This document shows, in pieces, positions 3,401-55,793 of a stretch of DNA of 64,000 nt (the first letter of the stretch is position 1; the number at the start of each line of letters is the position of its first letter). Source of the stretch: a virus (Duplodnaviria > Heunggongvirae > Uroviricota > Caudoviricetes); the IMG/VR virus record IMGVR_UViG_3300029740_000238, one strand, 5' to 3'. The notes under the pieces are model-generated. The model was given only the letters and a program-made list of their open reading frames with translations. It had not been told where the DNA came from and searched no databases. Both the position numbers and the translations under genes were made by a program.

Positions 3401-4734
3401 GTAAAGAAGAGCAGAAGCCAAATATTTATCAAATCCCCAAAAACTCGTTTGATACCGGGTATGTGTTGAACGGACAATTCAAAACTCGAAACTTCGTTGA
3501 AGGTATCATCCTGGCACTACCGTTCTTGGGAATTTTCATTTATGGATGGCATGATTTGGGATGGGATGTACAAAGTACCGTGGCCTATTGCGCAATACTC
3601 TGTGCTGCTGCTTTCCTTGGTGCAGCTCATGGTGTTGGCGGCGATAGCTTGTTTGAGTTTATTCAACGTGTTATCCGTTTCCGGCAAAGTCGCAGAATCT
3701 CAAAATACAATCCTCGTATCAAAACCGAACTTGAACCGGAATATCTGATTCATGACGGGCGGATGCTCCCGAAAGACAAGCTCAAGCAAATGCTTGGCAC
3801 TGTAAAGGGAAAAGTTCTTGGTGAAGAGAACGGTCCTATCAGTTCCGACATTACAGATGAAGAGCTCAAGGTCTTCTACGATGATGACTATGGGTTCCTG
3901 GAAAAACCGGATGCCCTCAAATCTAAAGCAGAACTCCGTGCTGAAGCAAAACAGCGTGCGAAAGAAGAGAAGGAATACATTAACTCTTTGCCCCGTTCTG
4001 AACGCAAGGCTGCCAGAGAAGAAATCAAGCGTAAGCGTGAACAGGAAGAGGCTGAGAAGAAGGCAAAAGAAGCAGAGCGCGAACGCATTATTAACGAAGC
4101 TATTAAGAAGCGTCTGGATAAAGCCGAGCGTGTTAAGACCGCACAGTATTACGAGAAGTTCATGGACCCCGACAATGAGCAGGAAAATGACAAGCCGGAA
4201 GAGAATAACGCTGAACTGAATCCTCAGGCTGTAGAGTTCAAGCCCGTCGCTGTAGGGCCGAGCAATAATGCGGTTCAGGATGATGTCGATATCTTTGACA
4301 GTGAAGAAAGCATCGACACCGATGAAGTAGAAGCGAATGTGGAAGCAGATGCGGATACAGAGCTGTTTGAGGACGGCACTGATACCGATATCCAAGCCCC
4401 GCAGATTGATGATGTAGTCTTTGACGATGAAACGGAAGTACTTGACGTCGATGAGGACTTGGATGACTTGTCGGTTGATATCCAGGATACTCAGTCTGCA
4501 CAGCCCGCAAAGCAGGGCAGGGGACAAGTCGTGAACAGCGATGACGATGCCAGCTTGGATGATGTAGACCTTTTCGATGACAGCACGGTCAGCCGCACAG
4601 AGGAAAGACCTCAGAACGTCAAAACCTCTGGAAAGACGATGGGCTCGCAAAAGCAGCCGCAAACCACACAGAACAACAGCGATATTGATTATATGTCCTT
4701 GAATGACATTTCTATCTTTGATAGTGAGGAGTGA
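3397..4734 (+). CDS. Conjugal-transfer membrane protein (TcpE/PrgI/VirB3-like) with a long acidic low-complexity C-terminal tail
   Basis: ATG at 3397 follows AAAAGGGGGAAG. Two hydrophobic helices sit near the N-terminus. The gene lies immediately upstream of the VirB4-like gene. The C-terminal ~200 aa are rich in Asp and Glu. Confidence 0.6.
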   Translation: MSKEEQKPNIYQIPKNSFDTGYVLNGQFKTRNFVEGIILALPFLGIFIYGWHDLGWDVQSTVAYCAILCAAAFLGAAHGVGGDSLFEFIQRVIRFRQSRRISKYNPRIKTELEPEYLIHDGRMLPKDKLKQMLGTVKGKVLGEENGPISSDITDEELKVFYDDDYGFLEKPDALKSKAELRAEAKQRAKEEKEYINSLPRSERKAAREEIKRKREQEEAEKKAKEAERERIINEAIKKRLDKAERVKTAQYYEKFMDPDNEQENDKPEENNAELNPQAVEFKPVAVGPSNNAVQDDVDIFDSEESIDTDEVEANVEADADTELFEDGTDTDIQAPQIDDVVFDDETEVLDVDEDLDDLSVDIQDTQSAQPAKQGRGQVVNSDDDASLDDVDLFDDSTVSRTEERPQNVKTSGKTMGSQKQPQTTQNNSDIDYMSLNDISIFDSEE

Positions 4735-4739
4735 AGCCT

Positions 4740-7400
4740 ATGTTTCGATTCAAAAATGGCGGAGAAATCCCCCACGGTGTTGTGGAACAGAGTATCGGTA
4801 CAATCCCGCTGACGAAAAAGGAACGCGATGAAATCGCCAAAGAAGAGCGGCGGCGGATGAATCAAAAGCTGGAAGCTCAGAATGAGCGCTATCAAATCAT
4901 TCGAAGCACACAGCGTATCATCCCTATTGAGGATATTTACGGCGGCATTGTTGTGACAAAGGACCACCGATATATCAAAATCATGGAATTTCGCCCTATC
5001 AACTTTGCCTATATGGACGCGGAAACTCAAAACCGTATTATTTCGCTTTTCTATCAAACGTTCAAAGCAACTCCCTGCAATATCCAGTTCAAAACCTTTT
5101 CTCGTAAAGCTGATGTCGAGAATTCAATCGCGACCGTGACGGACTATTACAAAGCAGAAAAGAATCCGAGTCGTAAGCGAATGTTGCAGGCATACATCGG
5201 ATTGCTTCGTAAGACGGCTTTGTCCGTTGGTATTACCCGTCGCTTCTTTGTGGTCGTAGAATTCCAGCGCACTATCAGCAACGATGGTTCTAAATTTGAA
5301 ATGGTTGTGGCCGACTTGAATGCCGTTGCGGCAAACGTCCGCTCTCACATGGAACAGTGTGGTAATATCTTTATTCCTGCACTTGGTAACCCTGACGGAA
5401 ACGAGGACGCAGGTCTACACCAGCTTTTTTACCAGCTCTTGAACCGTAGAAAAAGCGAGACCATCACGTTCAAGCAGCATATGGACCCCATTGTTGACCG
5501 TTATTTTGAAGCCGAAAAGAATGGCGTTAAGACGTCTTTGCAGGCAACGGAACTGATTGCTCCGGACTGGATTGACTTTACGCATCACGATTACATTGTC
5601 ATTGATGGCAAGTTTTATACTTTCGCTTACATTCCCTCGAACGGGTTCAGCCAGCGTGTCTATGCGGGCTGGGTGGCTACGTTCGTAAATGCTGGTGAAG
5701 GCATTGACGTCGATATGTTCTTTGAGCACATGTCCCGTGAAGCTGTCTTCAATAAAATCAGTACACAGCTTCGTCTGAGCCGTGCAAACGCCATGGACAG
5801 TCACGATACTGACTCTGACTATCAGGCGCGTATGGAAAAAATTTCGTCCAGTGAATATATGCTGCGCGGCCTTTCCAGCGGCGAAGAGTTCTATTACCTG
5901 TCAATGCTCATCACTATTGTGGCAGATACAAAGAAGGAACTCGATTATAAGTTCGATGCTTTGAAAAAGCGTATCGAAGGTCAGAGCATGAAGATTCGCC
6001 GTGCGGATTTCATGATGGAAGAATGCTTCGATTCCTGCCTGCTTCCTCTTGCGAAAATCAATAAGGAGCTGGCAAAGAAATCTCATCGCAATCTTCTGAC
6101 TTCGGGTGTTGCATCCTGCTATCCGTTCATCTCGTTTGAAATGCAGGACCCGGGCGGCGTTATGGTCGGGACAAATCATGTCAACAACTCTCTGGTCACC
6201 ATCGATATGTTTGATACCCGCGCTCATGCAAACGCAAACGCCGTTATCTTGGGCTCTTCCGGTTACGGCAAGACTTTCACCGCACAGCTGTTCGCACTAC
6301 GCTTGTCTGAGATGGACACGCAGGTGTTTATCATCTCTCCTCTGAAAGGTTTGGAGGACTACGGCGGCGGTTGTAAGGCAGTCAATGGTCAGTTCGTCTC
6401 CATGGACCCCTCTTCGGACAACAACATCAACATCATGGACATTCGCGCTCCTGACGATGAGGACGCAAAACTGCTGGATGATTATGAGGCTTCCGGCTCC
6501 TTCTTGACCAAAAAGATTCATACGATTCTTTCGTTCCTGCACCTGGTTGTTCGCAATATGACGCAGGAAGAAGAGCAGCTGATTGACGGCTGCCTGTATG
6601 CGACATACGCAAAGTTCGGCATCACCCGTGATAACAACTCTATCTACGATAAAGATGGCAACTATAAGGTGATGCCGCTGCTGGAAGATTTGCAGGAAGA
6701 AATGAGAAAAAACCCTGAACTGCATACCGTCTGCAACATCTTGAATCCGCTAATTAACGGTTCTATGGCTTGCTTCAATCACCACACCAACGTGGACCTT
6801 GACTCCAAGTACATCGTATTTGACTTCAATGGCATGAAAGGCTCTTTGCTTACCATGTCTATGTTCGTGGTTCTGGACTTTGTCTGGACGAAAATCAAAG
6901 AGGACCGTACACAGCGCAAAGCCGTATTTATTGACGAATGCTGGAAATTGATTGGCACTGACTCTAACGAGCAGGCAGCTGAAGACGTTGTAGAAATCTT
7001 CCGTACGATTCGTGCTTATGGCGGTTCCGCTTTTGCTATGACTCAGGATATTTCTCAGTTCTACGAATACAAGGGCGGCAAATACGGCAAGGCAATTATT
7101 GGTAACGCCGATACCAAAATCATCATGCACCTGATTCCGTCCGAAGCAAAAGCCCTTCAGGAAGCCATTCAGCTGACCAGCGTTGAGATGGAAGCGGTAT
7201 CCAGTCTGCCGCGTGGTCAAGGTCTGGTTTGCTCTGCATCCGCAAAACTGTTCGTCGATTTTGTGGCCGATGACTATGAAGCCAAGGAAATCACAACCGA
7301 TGCTAAGTCCTTCTACGAACGCCGCAAGGCTTTGGAAAAGAAAAAGCGGGAAGAAGAAGAGAAGGCGGCGGAAAATACCGTCATTGATGTTGAAATGTGA
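4740..7400 (+). CDS. VirB4/TrsE/TcpF-family conjugative transfer ATPase
   Basis: Walker A GSSGYGKT and Walker B VFIDECWKL are present. The protein is ~880 aa. GAGGAG lies 9 nt upstream of the ATG at 4740. Confidence 0.9.
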   Translation: MFRFKNGGEIPHGVVEQSIGTIPLTKKERDEIAKEERRRMNQKLEAQNERYQIIRSTQRIIPIEDIYGGIVVTKDHRYIKIMEFRPINFAYMDAETQNRIISLFYQTFKATPCNIQFKTFSRKADVENSIATVTDYYKAEKNPSRKRMLQAYIGLLRKTALSVGITRRFFVVVEFQRTISNDGSKFEMVVADLNAVAANVRSHMEQCGNIFIPALGNPDGNEDAGLHQLFYQLLNRRKSETITFKQHMDPIVDRYFEAEKNGVKTSLQATELIAPDWIDFTHHDYIVIDGKFYTFAYIPSNGFSQRVYAGWVATFVNAGEGIDVDMFFEHMSREAVFNKISTQLRLSRANAMDSHDTDSDYQARMEKISSSEYMLRGLSSGEEFYYLSMLITIVADTKKELDYKFDALKKRIEGQSMKIRRADFMMEECFDSCLLPLAKINKELAKKSHRNLLTSGVASCYPFISFEMQDPGGVMVGTNHVNNSLVTIDMFDTRAHANANAVILGSSGYGKTFTAQLFALRLSEMDTQVFIISPLKGLEDYGGGCKAVNGQFVSMDPSSDNNINIMDIRAPDDEDAKLLDDYEASGSFLTKKIHTILSFLHLVVRNMTQEEEQLIDGCLYATYAKFGITRDNNSIYDKDGNYKVMPLLEDLQEEMRKNPELHTVCNILNPLINGSMACFNHHTNVDLDSKYIVFDFNGMKGSLLTMSMFVVLDFVWTKIKEDRTQRKAVFIDECWKLIGTDSNEQAAEDVVEIFRTIRAYGGSAFAMTQDISQFYEYKGGKYGKAIIGNADTKIIMHLIPSEAKALQEAIQLTSVEMEAVSSLPRGQGLVCSASAKLFVDFVADDYEAKEITTDAKSFYERRKALEKKKREEEEKAAENTVIDVEM

Positions 7401-9162: not shown

Positions 9163-10440
9163 ATGACGAACGAACAAAAGCTTCTCGTATATCTCTATGG
9201 CGTTGATTCTATCCAGCACAAGCAGCTTGCCATTGCTCTCTCTGACATCCCATATCAATGCGTTACCAAAGCTCTGAGAGCGGCCAAAAAGCATGGGTAT
9301 GTTGAGGTCTTTATGAGAGATGAATCGCGGTATGTGCGTATCTCTCCGGACGGTCTGAAATACATTCGAAGCACTCAAAAAGACGCTCTGGATGTAGACA
9401 AGCGGGCGGCTATGAAGCGGCGAATCAAAGGCGAACAAGGACGGCTCACCAGGGTGGAAACGACACTCTGTATGTGCCGAGCAGCGGGAATTCAACCTGC
9501 CAAGGAAGCTGGAATCAAGCTGATTGATGTTCTTAATTCTGAACAGGATGCGTCCCAATCCTTCATGAGCGACTTCTTCTATGACAAAGGGCTTCTTTTC
9601 CTGTCCGATGAAATCTCTGCAACTATCAAGACGAGCACCACAATGGGCGAGGAGTACACGCTCGGTCAAAGCCGTCTGGTAGGTATCGTAATCAACCGCA
9701 CAGGCATTTCTTTTCTCTACTGTACGCTCGATAAGCTGATGCGATGGGTTGTGTCTTACGAACAGCGGCGTGTAAGTGCAGTGATGGAACTCTTGAAATC
9801 CAGCTCACTTGCGGCAACGGACGAGGACTTCGCAACAATCTGCAATATGTCTCCTAAGTGCATCGTTATCGGCAAGACCTGCGCCATAGTTCCAAAAATC
9901 ATTACTGGCGATAAGTATGGCAAAGCAATCGACAGCACTGATATTATCAAAATCCATAACGCAACAAGGCTCTTAACGCTCACGAATCTCGAACAAGTCT
10001 ACAAGTACAGCTATTTCGTTCCAACAAGTTCTATCGGCGTGGAACTTCTTACTCGAACAGCAGCTTTAACACGAAATGAACTCAATGAAATGATTTCCGT
10101 GTGGCTGGATGAGATGGCTGAAAGCCATACAACCGTTACTACTGGGCGATATGTTGAAGCATACATCAATGAACAGAAATGCAAAACCATAACGCTGCCG
10201 GTCATTGAGTTTGAAGAACTCGAATATCAAAAAAACGGACGAGTGCCTTATCATGTCGTTTGTGAGCGAGGAATGCAAGACGGTATCAGCCGGGCACTAG
10301 GAAGCAAAGTTCTCGATTTCAAGGATTTTGACAACATCCCAATGCCAGCACATAAATACGACGACGACGGAATTCGCCGCGATGGGATTAACCCATTGAC
10401 GCATAATGGATACAATGAAGAGGAGATGGATGACCAATGA
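9163..10440 (+). CDS. Hypothetical protein
   Basis: 425-aa ORF. No domain recognised. Confidence 0.55.
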   Translation: MTNEQKLLVYLYGVDSIQHKQLAIALSDIPYQCVTKALRAAKKHGYVEVFMRDESRYVRISPDGLKYIRSTQKDALDVDKRAAMKRRIKGEQGRLTRVETTLCMCRAAGIQPAKEAGIKLIDVLNSEQDASQSFMSDFFYDKGLLFLSDEISATIKTSTTMGEEYTLGQSRLVGIVINRTGISFLYCTLDKLMRWVVSYEQRRVSAVMELLKSSSLAATDEDFATICNMSPKCIVIGKTCAIVPKIITGDKYGKAIDSTDIIKIHNATRLLTLTNLEQVYKYSYFVPTSSIGVELLTRTAALTRNELNEMISVWLDEMAESHTTVTTGRYVEAYINEQKCKTITLPVIEFEELEYQKNGRVPYHVVCERGMQDGISRALGSKVLDFKDFDNIPMPAHKYDDDGIRRDGINPLTHNGYNEEEMDDQ

Positions 10441-10739
10441 TAGCAATTCGAGTATGTCCAACCTGCAAGCGCAAGTTTGAAGCTCGTGTGGGAGAACCCC
10501 AAACTTATTGTGAAGAGTGTCTTGAACTCAAAACCATGAGTGATTCGTCTGTGTGTTCTTGGTTCTTTGATGACGATGACTTCGATGACGATTTCGATAT
10601 CTCAGAAGCTGGAAAAGAAGAAAAGGCGGAGACACAAGAGGGGAAGCAGAGTAGACAAGTATTTGACTTGATTCCGCCGCACAAGGAAAAGACAAGACGC
10701 ATGGACAACGCTTTCTTCCAGGAAGCATTGAAAGGCTGA
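10437..10739 (+). CDS. Small zinc-ribbon protein with an acidic tail
   Basis: CPTC ... CEEC motifs. ATGA start/stop overlap with the upstream gene. Confidence 0.5.
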   Translation: MIAIRVCPTCKRKFEARVGEPQTYCEECLELKTMSDSSVCSWFFDDDDFDDDFDISEAGKEEKAETQEGKQSRQVFDLIPPHKEKTRRMDNAFFQEALKG

Positions 10740-10837
10740 CAGAGGGGTTGATGGAGCTACTTCAACCGCTCGTCTGGCAGGCTGGCAACACTTTGACCGC
10801 TAATCGTGAACTTTCATTTAACAAACCGGCTTCCAAA

Positions 10838-10866
10838 TTGAGAAAAAGTGCAATTTATGGTATAAT
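10838..10866 (+). promoter_or_regulatory. Sigma-A-type promoter
   Basis: TTGAGA, then a 17-nt spacer, then TATAAT, with TGG immediately upstream of the -10. Confidence 0.6.
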
Positions 10867-10970
10867 GCAGATATAGAAAAGAAAAATTGTACATACCTCT
10901 GACCACAAATCATTCAGATGCAATCTAATCAAAGTTTGAGGTTATCTAAATCAAATCGGAAGCATGTCCT

Positions 10971-11639
10971 ATGAAAAGAAAGTTTTTAATTCCATACGCT
11001 GCAGCAACACTGGCAATGGCAGCCGCAATCTGCACTGCCAGAATACCTTCCGTTGCTTTAGCAAGAACCTATGAGGGCTATAATGGAATGAAGCGTAGCT
11101 CGACGGCGGAAGAGACATTCCAGAAAATCAAAGTTCCTGCCTTTGCCTCCATCAAAGAAGTGACGGCGGAGGAAGCACGAAGCGTAGCTGATGGCATTAT
11201 CGTTTTTGCATTTCCTACCTGCCCTTATTGCCGGAACCTGATGCCGGAACTTATTGAGACCGCAAAAGAGGAGGGAAAGACCCTCTACTATTGCCAGATT
11301 GATAACTACCGCGACAAGTATGAATTTGATGAGACTCTGAATGGCCCGGTCATGACCGTGGCTCCCGGAAAAGGATATTATGAGCTTCTTGACTGGCTGA
11401 GCGATTATCTCATCGACTATACTGTGAAAGACGAGAACGGCGAAAGCATCAGTATCGGTGAAAAGAGAATCGGAGCGCCCACCATAATTACAGTCCAGAA
11501 CGGGGTTTCTGTATCCTCCTGGAAGTTGAGCATGGTAGAGAATGCCGAGTTCCCTGACAATGCGTATACTCGTTGGAGCCAGGAAACGCAGGAAATCGTA
11601 TCGGAGTCACTGCATCAATATTTTGCTGAGGAGGCATAA
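10971..11639 (+). CDS. Secreted thioredoxin-fold protein (CPYC active site)
   Basis: N-terminal signal peptide. AFPTCPYCRNL matches a thioredoxin/glutaredoxin CxxC motif. Confidence 0.7.
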   Translation: MKRKFLIPYAAATLAMAAAICTARIPSVALARTYEGYNGMKRSSTAEETFQKIKVPAFASIKEVTAEEARSVADGIIVFAFPTCPYCRNLMPELIETAKEEGKTLYYCQIDNYRDKYEFDETLNGPVMTVAPGKGYYELLDWLSDYLIDYTVKDENGESISIGEKRIGAPTIITVQNGVSVSSWKLSMVENAEFPDNAYTRWSQETQEIVSESLHQYFAEEA

Positions 11640-11642
11640 GTC

Positions 11643-11867
11643 ATGTCGAATATCACTGTTGGTCGAATCTTGCTTCTGGACCTTGTGTTCCTTGTTAATT
11701 CTGCTTTAACTCTTGTTGTTTTCAAGTTCGTTGGTCTTTTGGATGTTATGACTACACCGGCCTTGTTCTTTCATTTTGTTGGTTCTTATATTATCCTGGC
11801 ATATTTCATGTTTTGGATTTATCCGCAGATTCTGGAAGACCGGGAAAACAACGACGACGATAAATAA
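11643..11867 (+). CDS. Small membrane protein
   Basis: 74 aa with two hydrophobic helices. Confidence 0.45.
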   Translation: MSNITVGRILLLDLVFLVNSALTLVVFKFVGLLDVMTTPALFFHFVGSYIILAYFMFWIYPQILEDRENNDDDK

Positions 11868-11877
11868 CCTGGTCGTA

Positions 11878-12073
11878 CCGTAGGTGCTTGAAACCGTAGG
11901 TACTTGCCTAAAGTTGTGCGGGAAGCGTAGCCGCAATAGACTACTCCGAAAGTACCGTAGGCCCGCATACCGTAGGTCATACAATCAAGCGTAGCTGTTT
12001 GTAAAGAAATGAAAGACGGATGACGGAAGCGTAGCCGCTGCCCGGTAACAGGCTGCCGGTTGCGTAGCTGCCA
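11878..12073. repeat. Array of short repeats: 4x ACCGTAGG(T/C) and 4x (A)GCGTAGC
   Basis: The repeats were seen directly in an intergenic region. The same two motif types recur at 55681-55735. Confidence 0.7.
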
Positions 12074-12105
12074 TTCGTCTTTTTTGGTTTAGAGGAGAGA
12101 CGAGA

Positions 12106-12339
12106 ATGGTATATGAGGTAATCAGTCCACGCCCACATGGTTCAGAAACATTCGTGGGATTGCATACAGAATACCCGGAATGCATCGACCCGTTAAGTGT
12201 GCAGGAAGCGATGCTCAGCGGCGGTAACAAAATCACATTCAAGGGCACTGAGAAAGAATATGAGGCGGTCAAGAAAAAGCTGGCAGCCAAAGTCAAGGTG
12301 ACCATCATCAAAGAACAGAAAACGAAGAAAGAAAAATAA
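12106..12339 (+). CDS. Small hypothetical protein
   Basis: 77 aa. RBS AGAGGAGAGA. Confidence 0.5.
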   Translation: MVYEVISPRPHGSETFVGLHTEYPECIDPLSVQEAMLSGGNKITFKGTEKEYEAVKKKLAAKVKVTIIKEQKTKKEK

Positions 12340-21430: not shown

Positions 21431-22699
21431 ATGGCGAGCGAACGAGCGATACTTCACTGTGACATGAACTCTTTTTACGCAAGCTGCGAGGCGGCTTATA
21501 ACCCAAAGCTGCAGGGAAAACCAATTGCGGTATGTGGTGACCCGGAAAGGCGAAATGGCATCGTGTTGACTGCCTCATATCCGGCCAAACGGATGGGCGT
21601 GAAAACCGGGATGGCTTTGTGGGAAGCACAGCAGCATTGCAGAGACATCATCTTTGTTCCGGCTCATTATGACCTTTATACTAGGTACAGTAAATACACC
21701 AGAGAAATCTTCTTGCGTTTCACAGACCAGGTCGAACCGTTTGGCTTAGATGAAGCATGGCTTGATTGTACCGCAAGCCAGTCACTTTTTGGGACAGGGG
21801 AAAAGATAGCCAAGAAAATCTCTGATACCGTGAAGGATGAGCTCGGCATCACCTGTTCTATCGGCGTGAGCTGGAATAAAGTCTTTGCAAAGCTGGGGTC
21901 CGACTATAAGAAACCGGATGCCACCACCATCATATCAAGGTCAAACTGGAAGGATATCGTATTCCCGCTGCCTGCCACGGACCTTTTGTATGTTGGGTCC
22001 AGAACGGGGAAAAAGCTGTCAAACTACTGTATCCATACAATCGGTGACTTGGCGACCACCAATCCAAGCTTTCTGAAAGAGAAACTCGGAAAAATCGGTC
22101 CCATGCTATGGGAATTTGCCAACGGGCTTGATACGGGAACGGTAGCAAAATACGAGGACAGGGAGGCTCAAGCACCCATCAAGAGCGTTGGGAACAGTTG
22201 GACCACGCCAAGAGACCTCCTAACTGATGGGGACGTCTGGATAGTGCTTTATCTTCTTTCGGAGAGTGTTGCGGCCCGCCTCCGGGAGAATCATTTCCGA
22301 TGTCGAGGAGTAGAAGTGAGTCTCCGAGATTCCAGCCTTTTCAGCTTTGAACGGCAAGTCAAGCTGCCTCAGCCAACGATGCAGGAAAAGGATATTGCAG
22401 AGGCAGCGTACCAGCTGTACAAGAAGAATTATCGGTGGAGTGAGCATCTTCGCTCAGTCGGTGTGCGTGCCATTGACCTGCGTCCGGATACCGAACCAAA
22501 CCAGATATCTTTTGAGTATAGTGCCGAAAAGCAAGAGGAGACTGAACGACTCGAATCCGCAATCGATGGGATACGAAACCGATTCGGATACTACTCTGTG
22601 CAAAGGGCTGTTATGTACAAGGACCGCTTTCTCTCGCATTGTGATGCAAAGGGTGACCATACGATTCACCCACATGGGTATTTGCAAGGGAGCGTCTAA
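21431..22699 (+). CDS. Y-family DNA polymerase (DinB/UmuC/ImpB family)
   Basis: The N-terminus DMNSFYASCE ... LDEAWLD is diagnostic. RBS GGGAGG. Confidence 0.9.
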   Translation: MASERAILHCDMNSFYASCEAAYNPKLQGKPIAVCGDPERRNGIVLTASYPAKRMGVKTGMALWEAQQHCRDIIFVPAHYDLYTRYSKYTREIFLRFTDQVEPFGLDEAWLDCTASQSLFGTGEKIAKKISDTVKDELGITCSIGVSWNKVFAKLGSDYKKPDATTIISRSNWKDIVFPLPATDLLYVGSRTGKKLSNYCIHTIGDLATTNPSFLKEKLGKIGPMLWEFANGLDTGTVAKYEDREAQAPIKSVGNSWTTPRDLLTDGDVWIVLYLLSESVAARLRENHFRCRGVEVSLRDSSLFSFERQVKLPQPTMQEKDIAEAAYQLYKKNYRWSEHLRSVGVRAIDLRPDTEPNQISFEYSAEKQEETERLESAIDGIRNRFGYYSVQRAVMYKDRFLSHCDAKGDHTIHPHGYLQGSV

Positions 22700-27372: not shown

Positions 27373-28917
27373 TTAGTCGTGGGTTATTGACTCTTCAGTT
27401 TTCTTTTTCAGCCATTGTCTTCTCACAAACGGCGTGACATAAGTTTCATCACTCTTCAGCTCATAGCCATAGCTTTCAGCTATCAGGATGGCACGTTCGC
27501 TTGCTTTCTGTCCGGCAGGCAGGTGGCGAATGAAACCATTGATGTTTTTGGACGAAGCATCATATTTGGACTTGTCGAACACCCGCAGCGGCTCGTCGTC
27601 ACCATTGCCTTTCTTGCGATAATCGCGGGGCTTTCCGCCAATCATCAGACAACGAATCCCAAATGGAGCATCCGCGTGTGTCACAAACGAAGACCGGAAC
27701 GACGCATCAGTGGGCAGGACATCCGGCAAATCACAGGCGAGAGAAGTGTACAGCCAGAGAATCAGATTCGTGACGCTGTCAACCAGCTCTGGAAATTGAG
27801 CTCGGTCAGTCAAAATATAAAACCACTCGGTGCTTGTGTTATAGTATCCGGCCAGGTCACCGAACTTGGTTACGATTTTATACAGACACACAATCTCGTT
27901 GTCGCGGCAAGTCTCTTTCAGCTTAATTTCCTGTATCAGCTGGCAGACATCAAACTGAAACAATGCACCGTTGGCGGGAAGAGTTCTGCGGCGATGGTGC
28001 AGCGTATCTTTCAGAAACTCTGTCGTATATTTGGGTGAGATGGGCTTTGGCCACCAGGACCACATGTTCGGAGTATTCTCAATCAGCGGCTTGTCCGGCA
28101 GCATGTCCACGGTATACTCGTTCACATAGGTGGCCATCGAAAGAACCGTGTTTGTATACAAATGCGAGAGCAAAGCGAGGTCGTTGATGCTATCGAAATC
28201 TGCTACATTCTCATAGCCATAACGCTTATAGTACGAAAAGACCATATCCAGGCGTCTATCTTCAGAAATCTGAAAATCGCATTTATCGTATGGCCGATTA
28301 TTGAAAAGGGCTTCACTATAATAGACTGGAACATCCGCAAGGGGATAGGGGTCCCGAATGATGATAGGCTCATTCTCAGTCGAAATGCCAACAATGTTGT
28401 TCACAATGTCAAATTCCTGAGGCTTGAGGTATTCGCTCCCCTGTATCAGCATATCGATTACCGCGTACAGGACAGAATCATTACGTTCCATAACTCCGTC
28501 AATGGACAATCCTGAATGAACACATTCCTGCGCATAGGCAATAGCCTTGAAATACAGAGCATAGTCCTTATTCTTCTTGATGGGCTTTGTGAGCTCCTGC
28601 AAGAACCGATGATATCCCTTGATGAATTTATCAGAGTTCGCCATGGCGAGCTCTATCTGAGAGTTAACGGCCTCAATAAGAGGTTTGCACTCCTCAGCTC
28701 CACGGGCCAGGTGAAAGAGGAAAGTAGATGCTTTCCCAAAATCCATGTCATGCAATGTCGTCGCAACCTGGCAAGCGCTGGACAGGGTTCTTCTCTGAAA
28801 TACCCAGATAAACTCGCCTTTGCTCCGATACTTCTTATCCCATACCGGTGCGTATTTATCGACTAAGGCATTACCGAAATCTTCCTGCACTGCCAAAACA
28901 CCATTTTCGTTCTGCAC
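27373..28917 (-). CDS. Hypothetical 514-aa protein, second gene of a two-gene operon
   Basis: Starts 10 nt after the upstream gene stop. No domain recognised. Confidence 0.55.
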   Translation of the reverse strand: MQNENGVLAVQEDFGNALVDKYAPVWDKKYRSKGEFIWVFQRRTLSSACQVATTLHDMDFGKASTFLFHLARGAEECKPLIEAVNSQIELAMANSDKFIKGYHRFLQELTKPIKKNKDYALYFKAIAYAQECVHSGLSIDGVMERNDSVLYAVIDMLIQGSEYLKPQEFDIVNNIVGISTENEPIIIRDPYPLADVPVYYSEALFNNRPYDKCDFQISEDRRLDMVFSYYKRYGYENVADFDSINDLALLSHLYTNTVLSMATYVNEYTVDMLPDKPLIENTPNMWSWWPKPISPKYTTEFLKDTLHHRRRTLPANGALFQFDVCQLIQEIKLKETCRDNEIVCLYKIVTKFGDLAGYYNTSTEWFYILTDRAQFPELVDSVTNLILWLYTSLACDLPDVLPTDASFRSSFVTHADAPFGIRCLMIGGKPRDYRKKGNGDDEPLRVFDKSKYDASSKNINGFIRHLPAGQKASERAILIAESYGYELKSDETYVTPFVRRQWLKKKTEESITHD

Positions 28918-28927
28918 GGTATCCTCC

Positions 28928-30325
28928 TTACAACTTTAACTGCCCCACACAACTCTGCGCGGTGGGCAGTAGCTTGTGGGCCATCTCGTTTCGAAAATAC
29001 TTGGGGTCCACGGCCCGCATCCCGAACCGCACACGGTCCAGGGCATCTGCGTCCTTGAGAATCGTATATAGCAGCCACACCCGTTCTTTGTTTCGAATAT
29101 TGGATGTTTTGAGGTCTGCAAGAGCCTTGCGGTCATCCAAGCAATGATACTCGATGAGGAAAGCAGTTGCCGAATTGCATTCGGGAACAGCATCATAATA
29201 AATGTCATTGGACTTTGCTCCGTGACTGTCATCGACATCATCATTCGTCCGCCCAATATCATGATAAAGAATCGCATCACATAGCTGGTGGGATTCTTTT
29301 CTTGTTAAGGCAATGCCCTGAACCTGAACCAAAAGCAGCGCATCAAAGAGAACTCGCAGCGTATGCTCGGCGTCGTGCTCCTCATCATTAGCCCGGCCAT
29401 AAGCATCATACAGAGTGGAAATGCGGCTCCGGTAGCGCTGGTAGAGAGGGTAGAGCGCCTGGATTTCGTCTGTCAGAGCGTTGATACCGAGAAGCACATC
29501 GACCTTTACATCTTTTACGGCAGCCGGTAGGACAAGGACCTCTTTTTCCTCATCGTCCGGAAAATACTCGATGATGTCACATTTGCTGACATGGGCAGTG
29601 ATGATTCTGCTGTTCTCGAGACTCGGGATGCGGCAGGCGAAGAAACAGGCTGCCTTGTAGCTTGTGGTCCAGGAGAAAGATTTCTCGTATGGAGTTGACT
29701 TACTCCCTTCCCCGCGATAGATGGTCACAACATCCGGCAGGCTGGACAGCTTCTTTTCAGTATCTTCCTTTTGCTTTTGAGATTTTCCAGCAAAGACCTT
29801 TTGCAGGCCATTCTCACTGAGGGAAGAAAAGCCAAAATCACTGGTGCGATACAGGTCAAGAAAGAGAACATATAAGTCCTCACCAGGATTGGACAACTCA
29901 ATGTATTTAGAAAGAACCGATACGCGAAGGCTGTCTTCCAGGGAAAAGAGGTAGCTGCGAATAAAGGGGGCGTTTCCCGATGAGATTTTCTCGGCCATAT
30001 CCAGAACTCTCTGCTGAAACTTTTCGTCCGATTCGCCGTTCACAGCCAGACGCTTGTCCCCGTAAATGTTCAGAGAGAGAACAATGGGAACGGTCGTGCT
30101 ATCGAGCTCGCAATAATAGAGAGGAGCAAGCATATTGTGCGCAGCATAAATCTTGTCGATGGGGAGTCTCGGATACTTTTTAGCGAATTCAGTGGCTGTT
30201 ATACCGATGCTGTAGCCTTCTTTGTAGTACCGTTCAATATCCGCGCTCGTCTGCACTGCAGTGAGGGGTAGCATCGTCTCGAGACTTGCTTGGTTGATGC
30301 TTACAAGAATATCCCCGACCGTCAT
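28928..30325 (-). CDS. Multidomain protein: central ADP-ribosyltransferase-like motifs plus a C-terminal HD phosphohydrolase domain
   Basis: HD motifs at EHTLRV and LYHDIGR. Candidate R-S-E triad at YRG (aa 203-205), TTS (220-222) and EKEVLVLP (260-267). RBS GGAGGAGAAA. Confidence 0.55.
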   Translation of the reverse strand: MTVGDILVSINQASLETMLPLTAVQTSADIERYYKEGYSIGITATEFAKKYPRLPIDKIYAAHNMLAPLYYCELDSTTVPIVLSLNIYGDKRLAVNGESDEKFQQRVLDMAEKISSGNAPFIRSYLFSLEDSLRVSVLSKYIELSNPGEDLYVLFLDLYRTSDFGFSSLSENGLQKVFAGKSQKQKEDTEKKLSSLPDVVTIYRGEGSKSTPYEKSFSWTTSYKAACFFACRIPSLENSRIITAHVSKCDIIEYFPDDEEKEVLVLPAAVKDVKVDVLLGINALTDEIQALYPLYQRYRSRISTLYDAYGRANDEEHDAEHTLRVLFDALLLVQVQGIALTRKESHQLCDAILYHDIGRTNDDVDDSHGAKSNDIYYDAVPECNSATAFLIEYHCLDDRKALADLKTSNIRNKERVWLLYTILKDADALDRVRFGMRAVDPKYFRNEMAHKLLPTAQSCVGQLKL

Positions 30326-30829: not shown

Positions 30830-31190
30830 AGATGGGGCGATACCGATGCAGTAGGGATGAGAATCTTAGCAGCTAAAAGAGTCAACAACCCCGCCTAAAC
30901 CGGTTCGGCGGTTATAGACGGGGCTTGCGGGGCAACCTGTAAGCCCAGTTGATTAGCCTAAGCCCATTGCTCCGGCAGTGGGGAAAACTACGTTGTGTAC
31001 TAATAATATAGGCACCTTATCCATGCTCCACAAGTGGTGAGCTCTGCAGGCGTTTCGTTAAACATCTCCGAGGGGAGGAGAAGTGCGAGCGTTATGTCGA
31101 AAGGCTAAAACAGTGCATAACATTGGCGAAGTGGACCACAGGACGCAAGTCCTGACTTATAGTTTTATTACTATTTTACGAATGGAGAAA
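30830..31190 (+). other. About 360 nt of GC-rich, hairpin-dense non-coding sequence upstream of the flotillin gene; candidate structured leader or ncRNA
   Basis: Multiple stems (CCGCC..GGCGG, GGGCTT..AAGCCC, CCCATTG..CAGTGGG, AGGAC-GCAA-GTCCT plus a U-rich tail) and no ORF. Confidence 0.35.
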
Positions 31191-31198: not shown

Positions 31199-32842
31199 AT
31201 GGTATATGTGATTGGAATTGTGGCAGCCCTGATTATTCTCTTTGGATTTCTCTGCTACAAGAAAGCTCCGCCCACGGAGGCTATCGTTGTAACTGGCTTT
31301 GGCCTGTCTAAGCCTAAAGTGGTTTGCGGAAAGGGTACATTTGTTCTGCCCGTTCTTCAACGGGCTGACCGACTGAATATGCGCCTTTTGAAAATCGATG
31401 TCAAGACTCCTGAAACAGGTGTTAAGACGAAGAACGGCGTAAGTCTCTGGATTGACTCTGTTGTCACGATTCAAGTCTACAGCGAAAACTCTACCGTTCT
31501 GGATGAAGAAGTGAAGGCATCCGGTCTGAAAGACGCCAAGGCGTACATCATGTCCCGCCAGCAGGCAGCCATCTCGAACTTTCTCGGCATGAACGAGCAG
31601 GGCATCAATGAGAAAGTTAATGACGTTCTGCAGGGCAATTTGCGTGAGATTGTCTCTGACATGACCGTTGACCAAATTCTGACGAACCGCAAGCAGATGG
31701 CTGTGAGCGTTATCGAGAATGCTCGCCCCGACCTTGCTAAGATGGGACTTGAGGTCGTGACTTTTAATGTCCAGGACATCAGGGATGCAGTGGATGTTCA
31801 AGGCCACAATCACGGCGTTATCGAAGCTATCGGCATCGAACAGGAAGAGCTCGTAAAGAAACAGGCTGAAATTGCCCGTGCTCAGGCTGCCCGTGATGTA
31901 GCCTGCGCGAAGGCCGATGCTGAGATGGCTGCAAATGCCAAGGAAGTTGAAGCGCAGACTGCGATTGCAAAACGCAACAATGAATTGCAGCTCGCCAAGG
32001 CAAAGCTGAAAGCTGAAGCTGATAAAGCTGCGGCTGACGCAGATGCTGCCGGTCAGATTCAGATGAATCTCCGCGCCAAAGAAATCAAAGAAGCGGAAGC
32101 GGATGCTGAAATCGCCAAGCAGAAGAAAATGGTAGACCTTGCCGCACAGGAAGCCGAGGTCCAGCAACGCAAACTGGATGCGGAAGTCCGCAAACAGGCA
32201 GATGCTGACCTGTACCGCTGCCAGAAAGAGGCAGAAGCCAAGAAATATGAGGCGGAACGTGCAGCTGAGGCACAGAAGTTCTCTAAGCAGCAGGAAGCAG
32301 AAGGCATTGAGCTTGTCGGTAAGGCAGAAGCTGAAGCGATTCGTCAGAAAGGCTTGGCTGAAGCGGAAGCCATGAAACAGAAAGCAGAGGCATATAAGCA
32401 GTATAACGATGCGGCTGTGGCTGAAATGCTCATCAAGGTTCTTCCTGACATTGCCAAGAGCGTGGCTCAGCCTTTGTCCAGCATTGATAAGGTTTCTATC
32501 ATTGGCGGTGATGCCTCCGGCGTATCCGGCGTTTCCGGGAACGTTCCTATCCTGATGGCTCAAACCATGCAGACGGTGAAAGAAGCGACCGGCATTGACA
32601 TGGGCGAAATTGTCCGTGCCAACAGCATCCAGGCAAAGACAGACCGCAACATCAACATTATGACTCAATGTGAACAGCCTGAGAATAACAAAGAGAAAGG
32701 AGGTGCCAAGGCAATGGAACGCGTAGAAGGCGGCTATCTGATTCATGAGAAGAATCTCAACGGTGAGGAAGTCACTCATTTTCGACCGGATGTGACCGAA
32801 GAAGAGAAGGCTATCATGAAAGACAAAAAGGCCAAAGATTAA
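31199..32842 (+). CDS. Flotillin-like SPFH/band-7 protein with an Ala/Glu/Lys-rich coiled-coil region
   Basis: N-terminal TM helix, SPFH core and long EA-repeat coiled coil, as in FloT/YuaG. Confidence 0.8.
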   Translation: MVYVIGIVAALIILFGFLCYKKAPPTEAIVVTGFGLSKPKVVCGKGTFVLPVLQRADRLNMRLLKIDVKTPETGVKTKNGVSLWIDSVVTIQVYSENSTVLDEEVKASGLKDAKAYIMSRQQAAISNFLGMNEQGINEKVNDVLQGNLREIVSDMTVDQILTNRKQMAVSVIENARPDLAKMGLEVVTFNVQDIRDAVDVQGHNHGVIEAIGIEQEELVKKQAEIARAQAARDVACAKADAEMAANAKEVEAQTAIAKRNNELQLAKAKLKAEADKAAADADAAGQIQMNLRAKEIKEAEADAEIAKQKKMVDLAAQEAEVQQRKLDAEVRKQADADLYRCQKEAEAKKYEAERAAEAQKFSKQQEAEGIELVGKAEAEAIRQKGLAEAEAMKQKAEAYKQYNDAAVAEMLIKVLPDIAKSVAQPLSSIDKVSIIGGDASGVSGVSGNVPILMAQTMQTVKEATGIDMGEIVRANSIQAKTDRNINIMTQCEQPENNKEKGGAKAMERVEGGYLIHEKNLNGEEVTHFRPDVTEEEKAIMKDKKAKD

Positions 32843-35314: not shown

Positions 35315-35318
35315 AAAG

Positions 35319-35720
35319 TTACCCTCCTCTCTTTTTTTGCTGTTCTACATAGTGTTGAATCGTAGCGGTAGACACATCTCCGGCAGTGCTTACAAAATAG
35401 TTGCGTGTCCACATTTGCATTTCGATGTCGGGAAAAAATTCTTTCTTTAATTGCCTGCCGGTGGTTCCTTTAATAATTTTCATGATTTCTGCAGCACTTA
35501 ATGTAGGCGGAGCATTCACGAAAAGATGACAATGGTCGATATGACATTCCATTGCCAGTATCACAATGTCGTTTTGCTCACAAATTTGAGTTACAAGTTC
35601 CTTGAAACGAGCTTCAAACCCATCCACCAGAAATAATTTTCTCCGATAGCGTGGGCAAAACACAAAGTGATAATTTATCATAGAAACGGTTGTTTTTGTG
35701 CGTCTGTAGTTTCTTTTCAT
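35319..35720 (-). CDS. tnpA: IS200/IS605 TnpA (Y1 HUH transposase)
   Basis: HIDHCHLFV (HuH) motif and a catalytic Tyr in RNYFVSTAG. Confidence 0.85.
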   Translation of the reverse strand: MKRNYRRTKTTVSMINYHFVFCPRYRRKLFLVDGFEARFKELVTQICEQNDIVILAMECHIDHCHLFVNAPPTLSAAEIMKIIKGTTGRQLKKEFFPDIEMQMWTRNYFVSTAGDVSTATIQHYVEQQKKRGG

Positions 35721-49357: not shown

Positions 49358-49592
49358 GGTGTACTCCTTTCAAATGTGTCATTTGCTGTATAATAATGTC
49401 ATCTTCTGTAATTATAATAGCACATCTCGTACTAAAAAGCAAGCATGAATTTACAATAAATGACAAGAAAATACACGAGATGACATATTTGGGCAAAGCG
49501 GTTGATTTTTGGCATTTCCTGTTCAGCAACGGAACAAGTCCCATGTGCCTTGTCTTTGTCACGGCTTTGCCATATTTTTGCCTTGTGCATCC

Positions 49593-55642: not shown

Positions 55643-55680
55643 CCCTGCTCGCAGCAAAATGCGGGTAGGACTTTTTTGTT
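55643..55680 (+). terminator. Rho-independent terminator
   Basis: CCCTGCTCGCA ... TGCGGGTAGG stem plus TTTTTTG. Confidence 0.55.
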
Positions 55681-55735
55681 TGCGTAGCTGCATCCTTTTG
55701 CCCGCAGAAACCGTAGGTGCCAGGATGCGTAGCTG
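55681..55735. repeat. Second cluster of GCGTAGC / ACCGTAGGT motifs
   Basis: TGCGTAGCTGC ... AACCGTAGGTGC ... TGCGTAGCTGCC; the same motifs as at 11878-12073. Confidence 0.65.
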
Positions 55736-55755
55736 CCGACATGGCTTGACCTGAT

Positions 55756-55793
55756 GTGCGAGGCTCGTACAATCAGATTTGTACGACAGATAT
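55756..55793 (+). promoter_or_regulatory. Promoter-like motif GTGCGAGGCTCGTACAAT with an inverted partner ATTTGTACGACAGATA
   Basis: Family member of the palindromic subtype. Confidence 0.45.

What the first reader, a model, noticed from the sequence alone, without database searches (positions are those of the whole stretch)
11878..12073. Iteron-like array of ACCGTAGGT and AGCGTAGC motifs, recurring at 55681-55735 next to promoter-like motifs
Eight CGTAG-core repeats are packed into 200 bp of an intergenic region. The same two motif types recur immediately upstream of the 55756 promoter-like motif. The 11878 array also ends in a CATACAAT -10-like element. Such arrays are typical binding platforms for a Rep protein (origin), a partition protein (centromere) or a transcriptional activator.
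Basis: seen in the sequence. Interest (0 to 1): 0.65.

Follow-up and report, generated by a model that had tools for sequence, protein, structure and literature searches.

The report
Sense-strand CGTAG mini-hairpin repeat arrays
The repeat cluster is real and conserved in a widespread gut-bacterial conjugative element, but it looks like a row of tiny single-strand hairpins placed around a transcription terminator, probably controlling read-through, rather than a double-strand docking platform for a replication or partition protein.

Summary
Eight N-CGTAG-N' motifs lie at 11877-12069 and three at 55681-55736, all on the + strand; simulated sequence never gave more than two per 200 bp. The window is part of a large (100-290 kb) conjugative element of human-gut Oscillospiraceae/Clostridiales.

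Relatives whose proteins are only 45-65% identical keep the motif at the same places and on the same strand. Those places are the leader and first 230 nt of a TrbB-like thioredoxin gene, and the gap between a small membrane ORF and a 77-aa ORF. In that gap the array ends in a strong hairpin plus U-run, an intrinsic terminator.

The two bases flanking CGTAG are Watson-Crick complementary in 65 of 71 copies (G:C, C:G, A:T), against 25% in background. One orthologous G:C to A:T swap is seen. The unit is therefore a GNA-triloop mini-hairpin. GCGTAGC is also the published core of the Bacteroides fragilis PSA ops site.

There is no helical phasing, no AT-rich region, and no rep or par gene nearby.

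Best reading (about 0.4): co-transcriptional, ops/LoaP-like hairpin signals that govern termination. Rivals: ssDNA priming signals, or double-strand operators. No NusG-like factor was found.

The parts
11877..12069 (+). Site-1 array: eight N-CGTAG-N' mini-hairpin motifs. Copies 1, 2, 4 and 5 are ACCGTAGGY. Copies 3, 6 and 7 are AGCGTAGCY. Copy 8 is TGCGTAGCT.
   Evidence: Identical in 8 other contigs. The motif, its strand and its position are kept in relatives L012, L015, L018, L024, L027 and L324.
12015..12085 (+). Long hairpin (12015-12079) carrying copy 7 in its 5' arm and copy 8 in its 3' arm, followed by T-run 12080-12085. This is an intrinsic-terminator-like element just before the RBS of ORF 12106.
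   Evidence: RNA fold -40.3 kcal/mol, z = -5.2. An equivalent hairpin plus U-run is present in L012, L015, L018 and L024, with z from -3 to -5.5. It is much weaker when folded as DNA, z = -2.2.
11090..11189 (+). Two outlying copies (GAAGCGTAGCT at 11090-11100 and 11179-11189) inside the TrbB-like thioredoxin ORF, in different reading frames.
   Evidence: Relatives carry 4-5 copies in the first 160 nt of the same ORF plus 3-4 in its 5' leader.
10838..10866 (+). Strong sigma-70-type promoter, TTGAGA-17-(TG)TATAAT, of the TrbB-like gene. In relatives the motif copies start 15-25 nt downstream of its -10 element.
11978..11985 (+). CATACAAT -10-like octamer inside the array. No -35 partner; not conserved in the diverged relatives. 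Probably not a promoter.
55681..55736 (+). Site-2 array of three copies: TGCGTAGCTGC (55681-55691), AACCGTAGGT (55709-55718) and TGCGTAGCTGC (55726-55736).
   Evidence: In the 14 distinct variants, which were collected by requiring copies 2 and 3, the first copy is kept in 13 while the spacers change.
55644..55677 (+). Terminator-like hairpin plus T-run of the upstream gene, immediately 5' of site 2.
   Evidence: A terminator of different sequence occupies the same place in variants L292, L299 and L304.
55746..55785 (+). Promoter TTGACC-16-TACAAT with the element-wide GTGCGAG spacer motif and the palindrome CGTACAA-N6-TTGTACG. It lies 13 nt downstream of the last site-2 copy.
10437..10739 (+). 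100-aa CxxC...CxxC zinc-ribbon protein with an acidic middle and a basic tail. It always accompanies the arrays, including in L006 where the upstream gene differs. It is a candidate trans-factor by inference only.
12106..12339 (+). 77-aa ORF directly downstream of the terminator, found only in this element family. Function unknown.
   Evidence: The AlphaFold model is of low confidence, pLDDT 62.

Best explanation
The repeats are not duplex iterons. Each unit is a roughly 13-nt sense-strand signal, G-A-A-S-C-[GTA]-G-S'-Y-R. Its core folds into a GNA-triloop mini-hairpin: two Watson-Crick pairs, a sheared G·A pair and one looped-out T.

I propose that the units act while the DNA is being transcribed. 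They would act either as hairpins in the exposed non-template strand of a paused RNA polymerase, as RfaH and UpxY ops sites do, or as small hairpins in the nascent RNA, as the LoaP leader hairpin does. Several copies give several chances to load an elongation or antitermination factor, or to modulate pausing.

The outcome would be control over whether polymerase stops at the intrinsic terminator at 12015-12085. That terminator separates the T4SS-associated genes from the downstream cargo genes, which include anti-defence-like genes.

Shown: the motif, its strand bias, the flank covariation, its conservation, the terminator, and the position in transcribed leaders of relatives.

Inferred: the co-transcriptional mode of action, the antitermination outcome, and the existence of a trans-factor, which has not been identified.
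For: 1. Strand: all 71 copies in five diverged lineages are on the sense (non-template) strand.

2. Covariation: the bases flanking CGTAG are complementary in 65 of 71 copies (G:C 47, C:G 15, A:T 3). GCGTAGG and CCGTAGC never occur in the arrays. For other CGTAG in the same DNA the figure is 37 of 149. One orthologous double change is seen: GACGGAA-G-CGTAG-C in the window and L012 becomes GACGGAA-A-CGTAG-T in L015 and L018.

3. Known structure: d(GCGNAGC) and CCGNAGG are the documented, unusually stable DNA mini-hairpins (PMC13037366).

4. Precedent: GCGTAGC is the core of the B. fragilis PSA ops site (ccGCGTAGCgca). That site carries an apparent non-template-strand hairpin and is recognised by the NGN domain of the NusG paralog UpxY (PMC11685472). 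The RfaH ops site is GGCGGTAGCGTG (PMC11880322).

5. Leader position: in relatives the copies begin 15-25 nt after the -10 element of a strong promoter and fill the 5' leader.

6. Terminator: in every lineage the site-1 array runs from the stop codon into an intrinsic terminator, and the last copy lies 8-13 nt before the U-run. The long hairpin is strong as RNA (z = -5.2) and weak as DNA (z = -2.2).

7. Flanks: conserved G at -4, pyrimidine at +6 (66 of 70) and purine at +7 (59 of 70). These read as G(-11)...Y(-1)R(+1) of an elemental pause, by my own comparison with the published consensus.

8. Other precedents: leader hairpin plus terminator is the LoaP design in Firmicutes (PMC12691694). 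Processive antitermination is common in Gram-positive conjugation operons (conAn, PMC8191782).
Against: - No NusG/RfaH/LoaP-like gene was found in about 92 kb of the element. Pfam gave none and phmmer with E. coli RfaH and NusG gave none. More than 100 kb of the element remains unseen.
- Known ops and LoaP sites are single; here there are 3 to 15 copies.
- Site 2 lies after a terminator and 13 nt before a -35 hexamer in all 14 variants, and it recombines together with the promoter. That position suits a DNA-level role better.
- The window's own leader (10867-10970) has no copies.
- The fit to the pause consensus is partial: A rather than G at -10.
- A second repeat, GGTACTTGC, expands within the array in some variants and is unexplained.
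Confidence: 0.4

Rival explanations
1. Single-strand DNA initiation or processing signals (ssi-like). The + strand is the one that becomes single-stranded, as the transferred strand, the rolling-circle-displaced strand or the lagging-strand template. The mini-hairpins would exclude SSB and mark sites where the element's own primase, or the host primase, starts complementary-strand synthesis.
For: - The GNA-triloop mini-hairpin is specifically a DNA structure. The review places such sequences at or near ssDNA priming sites: G4 (GCGAAAGC), St-1 and alpha3 (GCGTTAGC), and RSF1010 ssiA (CCGAAGG). Recognition of the mini-hairpin by primase is proposed there, not shown. A fragment carrying two such mini-hairpins binds SSB poorly (PMC13037366).
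- Both flank types seen here (G..C and C..G) have such precedents.
- The element encodes a CHC2-zinc-finger/DUF3854 primase-like protein and a RecD2-like helicase.
- Nearly all genes are on the + strand, and GC skew is positive there. In ICEBs1-type Firmicute elements (my own knowledge) this makes the + strand the displaced or transferred strand.
- A DNA-level signal need not respect promoters, terminators or reading frames, so it accommodates site 2 and the copies inside the ORF.
- The same sequence folds as a long terminator in RNA but not in DNA, so both uses could coexist.
Against: - Known ssi and sso elements are single, larger structures, not rows of minimal hairpins.
- The transferred strand, oriT and relaxase of this element are unknown.
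- This reading does not explain the conserved Y-R after the hairpin, the start of the arrays right after promoters and stop codons, or the constant 8-13 nt distance to the U-run.
Confidence: 0.25
2. One reading: a double-strand binding platform for a DNA-binding protein, acting as operator or activator sites for a plasmid global regulator, as a partition centromere, or as Rep iterons.
For: - Direct repeats cluster in intergenic DNA of a plasmid-like element.
- Site 2 keeps a fixed 13-nt distance to a -35 hexamer and travels with that promoter in recombinant variants.
- Copy number changes fast, and a second repeat expands in the array, as seen in centromere and operator arrays.
- A wHTH-like 425-aa protein and a zinc-ribbon protein are encoded just upstream.
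- Proteins with several tandem HTH domains are encoded beyond the window.
Against: - Flank covariation towards complementarity is not expected for a duplex site.
- There is no helical phasing.
- There is no AT-rich region, only one 1-mismatch DnaA-box-like 9-mer inside an ORF, and the array is relatively GC-rich.
- No rep or par gene was seen in the window or in 28 kb upstream.
- Some copies overlap each other (GCGTAGCGTAGC) or lie in a coding sequence.
- L006 keeps the array without the 425-aa gene.
- None of the other roughly 15 promoters of the same type has the motif.
Confidence: 0.15
3. RNA-level attenuation by a multimeric RNA-binding protein that reads the UAG-containing repeats as single-stranded RNA, as TRAP and HutP do. 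The protein would free or occlude the terminator arms.
For: - Each unit contains UAG.
- In 3 of 4 lineages, copies occupy both arms of the terminator and the 100-150 nt upstream of it.
- From my own knowledge, TRAP binds 11 (G/U)AG repeats and HutP binds UAG triplets next to terminators in Firmicutes.
Against: - Spacing runs from 5 to 85 nt, not the 2-4 nt that TRAP or HutP require.
- Flank complementarity is unexplained if the RNA is read unfolded.
- Site 2 is downstream of a terminator.
- No TRAP- or HutP-like Pfam hit was found.
Confidence: 0.08
4. Part of an origin of transfer: binding sites for a relaxase accessory protein, with the nic site nearby.
For: The array sits at the junction between the T4SS genes and the cargo genes. 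From my own knowledge, some enterococcal oriT regions combine an inverted repeat with short direct repeats.
Against: - No relaxase gene is adjacent or was found in 92 kb.
- L006 has the array without T4SS genes.
- There are two or three separate arrays per element.
- The T-run after the hairpin and the RNA-specific stability of the hairpin point to a terminator.
Confidence: 0.04

Closest known systems
ops elements, the recruitment sites of specialised NusG paralogs: RfaH ops GGCGGTAGCGTG, and Bacteroides fragilis UpxY class-1 ops sites, e.g. PSA ccGCGTAGCgca and PSE ctGCGAAGCata
   Same: The heptamer GCGTAGC is identical to the PSA ops core. Both have a C-G-(N)-T/A-A-G hairpin with a C:G closing pair and a G·A pair. 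Both lie on the non-template strand, in the 5' leader of long co-directional operons, conjugation operons included. Both are followed by a pyrimidine-purine step compatible with a pause.
   Different: There are 3-15 copies per locus here instead of one. Copies also occur inside an ORF, inside a terminator, and upstream of a promoter. The host is a Firmicute. No NGN-domain gene was found in about 92 kb. The loop is one nucleotide shorter than in the RfaH ops site. The roughly 40-bp extended site with upstream-duplex contacts described for UpxY is not evident.
LoaP leader system of Bacillus velezensis (small UNCG RNA hairpin, then a NusA-dependent terminator) and the conAn systems of Gram-positive conjugative plasmids
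   Same: Firmicute hosts. Small hairpin signal(s) upstream of an intrinsic terminator in a leader or inter-operon region. Control of long mobile-element or secondary-metabolite operons.
   Different: The loop is GUA, not UNCG. There are many copies. No LoaP or ConAn1 homolog was detected. conAn2 is a 260-600-nt RNA that has no such repeats.
Single-strand initiation signals carrying mini-hairpins: G4, St-1 and alpha3 complementary-strand origins, RSF1010 ssiA and ssiB, and N4 early promoters
   Same: S-C-GNA-G-S' mini-hairpin cores, with both GC..GC and CC..GG types. Strand-specific. Associated with an element-encoded primase.
   Different: Those are single hairpins embedded in larger stems at defined origins. 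Here there are irregular arrays of minimal hairpins at two or three loci, overlapping transcription signals.
Plasmid iterons and centromere or operator repeat arrays: Rep iterons, R1 parC, R388 stbDR, pSM19035 omega heptads
   Same: Clusters of short direct repeats in intergenic DNA of a conjugative element; at site 2, next to a promoter.
   Different: No helical periodicity, no adjacent rep or par genes, no AT-rich region, flank covariation, and copies inside a coding sequence and a terminator.
REP/BIME-type extragenic palindromes
   Same: Environmental contigs found with the same pattern carry longer intergenic hairpins capped by the same CCGTAGG and GCGTAGC turns (L212, L220, L158, L187, L258).
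   Different: Those have 6-9-bp stems and alternate orientation or form tandem units. The copies here have 2-3-bp stems and a single orientation.

Membership tests
ops / NusG-paralog recruitment site | Short motif on the non-template strand that can form a small hairpin with a C:G closing pair and a G·A pair | tested here: met
   All copies are on the sense strand. The flanks are complementary in 65 of 71 copies. The core is identical to the B. fragilis PSA ops core GCGTAGC.
ops / NusG-paralog recruitment site | Located in the transcribed 5' leader, between the TSS and the first start codon of a long operon | tested here: inconclusive
   Met in relatives L012, L015, L024, L027 and L324. In the window the copies are instead in an ORF, in an inter-operon gap, and upstream of a promoter.
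ops / NusG-paralog recruitment site | A cognate NGN-KOW (NusG-like) gene in the element or host | tested here: not met
   None in the window, 28 kb upstream or 10 kb downstream, by Pfam or by phmmer with RfaH and NusG. More than half of the element and the whole host genome could not be examined.
ops / NusG-paralog recruitment site | RNA polymerase pauses at the site | not testable with these tools
   Only a partial sequence match to G(-11)...Y(-1)R(+1) is available. NET-seq or in-vitro transcription is needed.
Rep iterons (theta-replicon origin) | Direct repeats of 17-22 bp at helically phased spacing | tested here: not met
   Information content spans about 13 nt. Spacings run from 5 to 85 nt. 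The Rayleigh test for periods of 10-11 bp gives p = 0.2-0.7.
Rep iterons (theta-replicon origin) | Adjacent rep gene, AT-rich unwinding element and DnaA boxes | tested here: not met
   No Rep family in the window. The array is 52% GC against 47% for the window. Only one 1-mismatch DnaA-box-like 9-mer was found, inside an ORF.
Partition centromere (parC, parS, tubC) | Adjacent ParA, ParM or TubZ NTPase gene plus an adaptor gene whose operon the repeats flank | tested here: not met
   No such Pfam families within the window or within 28 kb upstream and 10 kb downstream of it. The neighbours are a thioredoxin-like protein, a membrane peptide, a 77-aa ORF, DUF6557 and a phosphoesterase.
Single-strand initiation signal (ssi/sso) | Strand-specific stable ssDNA hairpin recognised by a primase or RNA polymerase | tested here: inconclusive
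   The mini-hairpin core and the strand specificity are met. Larger conserved ssDNA structure is not: DNA folds give z from -2.2 to +0.9. Priming itself is not testable here.
Single-strand initiation signal (ssi/sso) | Lies on the strand that is displaced or transferred | not testable with these tools
   oriT, nic and the relaxase were not found. There is only an indirect argument from gene co-orientation and GC skew.
TRAP/HutP-type RNA attenuation site | NAG triplets at regular 2-4-nt spacers, and a cognate protein | tested here: not met
   Spacings run from 5 to 85 nt. No TRAP or HutP family hit.
Rfam RNA families | Match to any curated RNA family | tested here: not met
   Nothing at the gathering threshold except HEARO elsewhere in the window. 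Only chance-level hits in 10700-12200 at E <= 10.

The most novel reading that the evidence does not exclude
A previously undescribed control device of Firmicute conjugative megaplasmid-like elements: multi-copy arrays of minimal GTA-triloop DNA or RNA hairpins on the sense strand.

These would be read by a factor that is not a NusG paralog. Candidates, by inference only, are the always-adjacent 100-aa zinc-ribbon protein and the element's primase.

The arrays would couple two processes on the same strand: termination or antitermination in the donor, and single-strand processing after transfer. The same sequence folds as a terminator in RNA and as mini-hairpins in DNA.
Probability: 0.2. Interest if true: 0.8.

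Novelty: new variant of a known kind. Interest (0 to 1): 0.55.

Why it matters
The element is very common in human-gut metagenomes. One of its T4SS-cluster proteins is indexed in 4,729 blocks of the assembly collection. It carries tens of kilobases of cargo that includes several anti-defence-like genes.

If the arrays gate read-through from the transfer genes into that cargo, they are a switch for when a widespread gut plasmid arms itself.

They would also extend ops-type, non-template-strand hairpin signalling, so far shown for Proteobacteria (RfaH, ActX/PrfaH) and Bacteroides (UpxY), to Clostridia, in an unusual multi-copy form and possibly with a new kind of reader protein.

If instead they are priming signals, they would be the first array-type ssi described for a Gram-positive conjugative element.

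Either way the covariation gives a sharp, cheap experimental handle: break the flank pairing, then restore it.

Tried and rejected
- Phage and plasmid databases: no nucleotide match for the region in 'phages' or 'plasmids', in near or distant mode. No annotated relative was available.
- Rfam: no family covers the arrays.
- Link to DUF6557: rejected. DUF6557 homologs outside the T4SS context (L025, L026) have no arrays.
- More distant relative: L326, whose TrbB-like protein is 45% identical, also lacks arrays. The motif is therefore confined to one sub-family.
- Genome-collection scan with the DUF6557 profile: one locus only, a Clostridiales MAG.
- Pattern scans of IMG/VR and of metagenomes for three-copy arrays. 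Apart from members of this family, the hits were coding tandem repeats (spacings in multiples of 3 or 6) or REP-like long hairpins capped by the same heptamers. No second family with minimal-stem arrays was seen.
- Search for a NusG-like gene: negative (and the Pfam calls).
- Walking 28 kb upstream and 10 kb downstream through IMG/VR contigs. This found a primase-like protein, a RecD2-like helicase, a T4SS pilin, an M23 peptidase and multi-HTH proteins. It found no relaxase, Rep, Par or NusG gene.
- AlphaFold model of the 77-aa ORF: pLDDT 62, too poor for a fold search.
- Larger conserved RNA structure in the leader arrays: none, z from -0.5 to -1.
- Val-GTA codon enrichment in the copies inside the ORF: suggestive only (4-5 of 9-12 Val codons against 18% overall), and not conserved in the window.
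- Depletion of the motif on the + strand outside the arrays: not separable from ordinary coding bias.

Full report
**1. What is there**

The window is almost entirely + strand genes. It starts with a VirD4-type coupling protein (4-1563) and a VirB4-like ATPase (4731-7400).

From 12 kb onward it carries cargo that includes several anti-defence-like genes. These include an AcrVA2-like protein, NADAR, an Apyc1-like lactamase, an orphan N6 methylase with its S subunit, a Y-family polymerase and Mor.

Identical or near-identical DNA occurs on many human-gut metagenome contigs of 100-290 kb. It also occurs on a Clostridiales MAG. One of its proteins is deposited under 'Oscillospiraceae bacterium SCCA1'. 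Shine-Dalgarno sequences and TTGACA/TATAAT-type promoters fit a Firmicute host. The element has no match in the phage or plasmid collections.

**2. The observation**

Eight CGTAG cores lie at 11879-12067 and three at 55683-55732, all on the + strand.

In 300 Markov simulations the largest cluster per 200 bp was 2; the observed cluster is 8.

Two more copies lie inside ORF 10971-11639.

The CATACAAT octamer sits mid-array and has no -35 partner. It is missing in the diverged relatives.

**3. Conservation**

I fetched syntenic loci through DUF6557 homologs and through TrbB-like homologs. The gene order is the same in all of them:

- VirB4
- 196-aa ORF
- 257-aa ORF
- 421-443-aa ORF
- zinc-ribbon protein (91-103 aa)
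- TrbB-like thioredoxin (about 221 aa)
- membrane peptide (62-74 aa)
- 77-83-aa ORF
- DUF6557
- phosphoesterase

At 45-65% protein identity the intergenic sequences no longer align. Even so, CGTAG motifs are present at the same two places and only on the + strand.

- Place (a) starts 15-25 nt after the -10 element of a TTGAGA-17-TGGTATAAT promoter. It runs through the 5' leader and up to 160 nt into the thioredoxin ORF.
- Place (b) starts 0-20 nt after the stop codon of the membrane peptide and runs to the RBS of the 77-aa ORF.

Site 2 is present in 14 distinct variants, collected by requiring copies 2 and 3. The unanchored first copy is kept in 13 of them, while the spacers and even the upstream gene differ.

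Close variants lose single copies. Some gain a block of five GGTACTTGC repeats. Individual copies are therefore dispensable, but the array is maintained.

**4. Anatomy of the unit**

From 70 non-redundant copies the consensus is G-A-A-S-C-G-T-A-G-S'-Y-R-c, with information content over about 13 nt.

The key result concerns the two bases flanking CGTAG. They are Watson-Crick complementary in 65 of 71 copies: G:C 47, C:G 15, A:T 3. GCGTAGG and CCGTAGC never occur in the arrays, although both exist elsewhere in the window. Background CGTAG in the same DNA has complementary flanks in 37 of 149 cases.

At one orthologous position, the copy in the 5' arm of the terminator preceded by GACGGAA, G...C in the window and L012 is replaced by A...T in L015 and L018. 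This is a compensatory double change.

S-C-[GTA]-G-S' is exactly the d(GCGNAGC)/d(CCGNAGG) 'mini-hairpin': two base pairs, a sheared G·A pair and a one-base loop. This structure is unusually stable in DNA (PMC13037366).

Selection for complementarity argues for a single-stranded form and against a duplex protein site.

Spacings run from 5 to 85 nt and show no helical periodicity.

**5. The terminator**

In every lineage, place (b) ends in a long hairpin followed by a U-run. As RNA it is strong:

- Window: -40.3 kcal/mol, z = -5.2.
- L012: z = -5.5.
- L015: z = -4.7.
- L018: z = -4.0.
- L024: z = -3.0.

The last motif copy always lies in the 3' arm, 8-13 nt before the U-run. In three of four lineages another copy lies in the 5' arm.

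The inner stem uses G·U pairs between the two GCGU segments. Folded as DNA, the structure is weak (z = -2.2 in the window, +0.9 for the L015 region).

It is therefore an RNA terminator, and the same bases can form DNA mini-hairpins.

Site 2 differs. It starts 3-8 nt after the T-run of the upstream terminator and ends 13 nt before the -35 hexamer of a promoter of the element-wide GTGCGAA...TACAAT type. It recombines together with that promoter.

**6. Comparison with known systems**

A literature search for the heptamer returned the B. fragilis capsule work. The PSA ops site is ccGCGTAGCgca and the PSE site is ctGCGAAGCata. Class-1 ops sites carry an apparent non-template-strand DNA hairpin. They are recognised, at a paused polymerase, by the NGN domain of the NusG paralog UpxY (PMC11685472).

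The RfaH ops site, GGCGGTAGCGTG, forms the analogous hairpin. It drives F-like and IncX transfer operons (PMC11880322).

In Firmicutes, LoaP uses a small leader RNA hairpin followed by a NusA-dependent terminator (PMC12691694). Gram-positive conjugation operons commonly use processive antitermination (conAn, PMC8191782).

The arrays studied here share several features with these systems:

- The sense (non-template) strand.
- The hairpin type.
- The leader position, in relatives.
- A downstream terminator.
- A pyrimidine-purine step two bases after the hairpin, plus a G eleven bases upstream of it. This resembles an elemental pause signal; the comparison is my own and only partly fits.

They also differ:

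- There are many copies.
- Some copies lie in an ORF or upstream of a promoter.
- No NusG-like gene was found in about 92 kb.

**7. Rivals**

The same mini-hairpins occur at or near ssDNA priming sites: G4, St-1 and alpha3, and RSF1010 ssiA, which has CCGAAGG.

The element encodes a CHC2-zinc/DUF3854 primase-like protein and a RecD2-like helicase.

The + strand is the one expected to be displaced or transferred if replication is co-oriented with transcription. This last point is an inference.

An ssi-like role would explain site 2 and the copies inside the ORF without difficulty. It would not explain the tight relation to promoters, stop codons and the U-run.

A duplex operator or centromere role fits the constant promoter distance at site 2. 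It is contradicted by the covariation, the lack of phasing, the absence of an AT-rich region, and the absence of rep and par genes.

TRAP/HutP-type RNA binding fails on spacing. An oriT role lacks a relaxase, and it conflicts with L006, which keeps the array without T4SS genes.

**8. Verdict**

- The iteron or centromere interpretation is largely not supported.
- Best-supported description: strand-specific arrays of GNA-triloop mini-hairpin signals.
- Best-supported function (about 0.4): co-transcriptional, ops/LoaP-like control of termination at the boundary between the transfer genes and the cargo.
- Serious alternative (about 0.25): ssDNA priming or processing.
- Duplex binding sites: about 0.15.
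- One mechanism may not cover both sites.

I class the feature as a new variant of a known kind. It is of moderate interest because it is conserved, widespread and directly testable with break-and-restore mutations of the flanking pair.

Noticed in passing
window 30881-31141 (+): HEARO / IscB omega-RNA family match (RF02033, 89.7 bits; gathering score 83). The ORF that follows is an SPFH/flotillin protein (31199-32842), not an IscB nuclease. Two unannotated ORFs lie just upstream on the - strand (27373-28917 and 28928-30325). This may be an orphan or relocated omega-RNA.
   Followed up: no
window, + strand, about 15 or more sites, e.g. 17622, 30626, 30793, 36388, 38976, 40186, 43321, 54829, 55235, 55756, 55862, 56852, 63892: Element-wide promoter architecture: TTGnnn-N4-GTGCGAA-N3-CRTACAAT, i.e. 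a conserved GTGCGAA in the spacer. At 17622, 30626, 55756 and 63892 it is followed by the palindrome CGTACAAT-N5-TTGTACGACAGATA. It looks like a regulon under one repressor or an unusual sigma factor or activator.
   Followed up: partly
window 33578-35720 (-): IS200/IS605-type insertion: a Y1 transposase (35319-35720) plus a TnpB-like ORF (33578-35314), on the strand opposite to nearly all other genes.
   Followed up: no
window 12-64 kb: Co-directional cargo with several anti-defence-like genes: AcrVA2-like (40836-41723), NADAR, Apyc1-like metallo-beta-lactamase (62682-63863), orphan N6 methylase with S subunit (49509-52602), Y-family polymerase (21431-22699), treble-clef zinc-finger/HNH-like proteins (about 18-21 kb) and Mor (about 39 kb). 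It resembles a plasmid 'leading region', but oriT was not located.
   Followed up: partly
L327-L332, about 2660-2820 (equivalent to window 11902-11920): Some close variants carry a 130-bp expansion of five direct repeats, aaaGGTACTTGC(c). This is the type-A unit AAACCGTAGGTACTTGCC minus CCGTA. It is a second repeat family inside the array, and it is not enriched elsewhere in the window.
   Followed up: partly
L271:53-1135, L271:10001-12283, L267:3075-3500, L267:3566-9853 (8-28 kb upstream of the window start): The element also encodes a CHC2-zinc-finger/DUF3854 primase-like protein, a RecD2-like helicase, a T4SS pilin, a 2,095-aa protein with no Pfam match, a signal peptidase and a YqaJ exonuclease. 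No recognisable relaxase was found.
   Followed up: partly
L300:16356-18487 (about 6-8 kb beyond the window end): Three consecutive genes encode proteins made of several tandem HTH domains (Mor-, HTH_23-, HTH_28- and HTH_7-like; up to five or more per protein). They are possible readers of repeated DNA motifs.
   Followed up: no
IMG/VR contigs, e.g. IMGVR_UViG_3300045988_182459 (222 kb), _184202 (268 kb), _183020 (125 kb): IMG/VR files dozens of 35-270-kb contigs of this T4SS-bearing element as viral genomes. No phage structural genes were seen in the parts examined, so they are probably misclassified plasmids or ICEs.
   Followed up: partly
The C-GTA-G triloop thus seems to be a recurrent hairpin cap in bacterial extragenic palindromes.
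   Followed up: no
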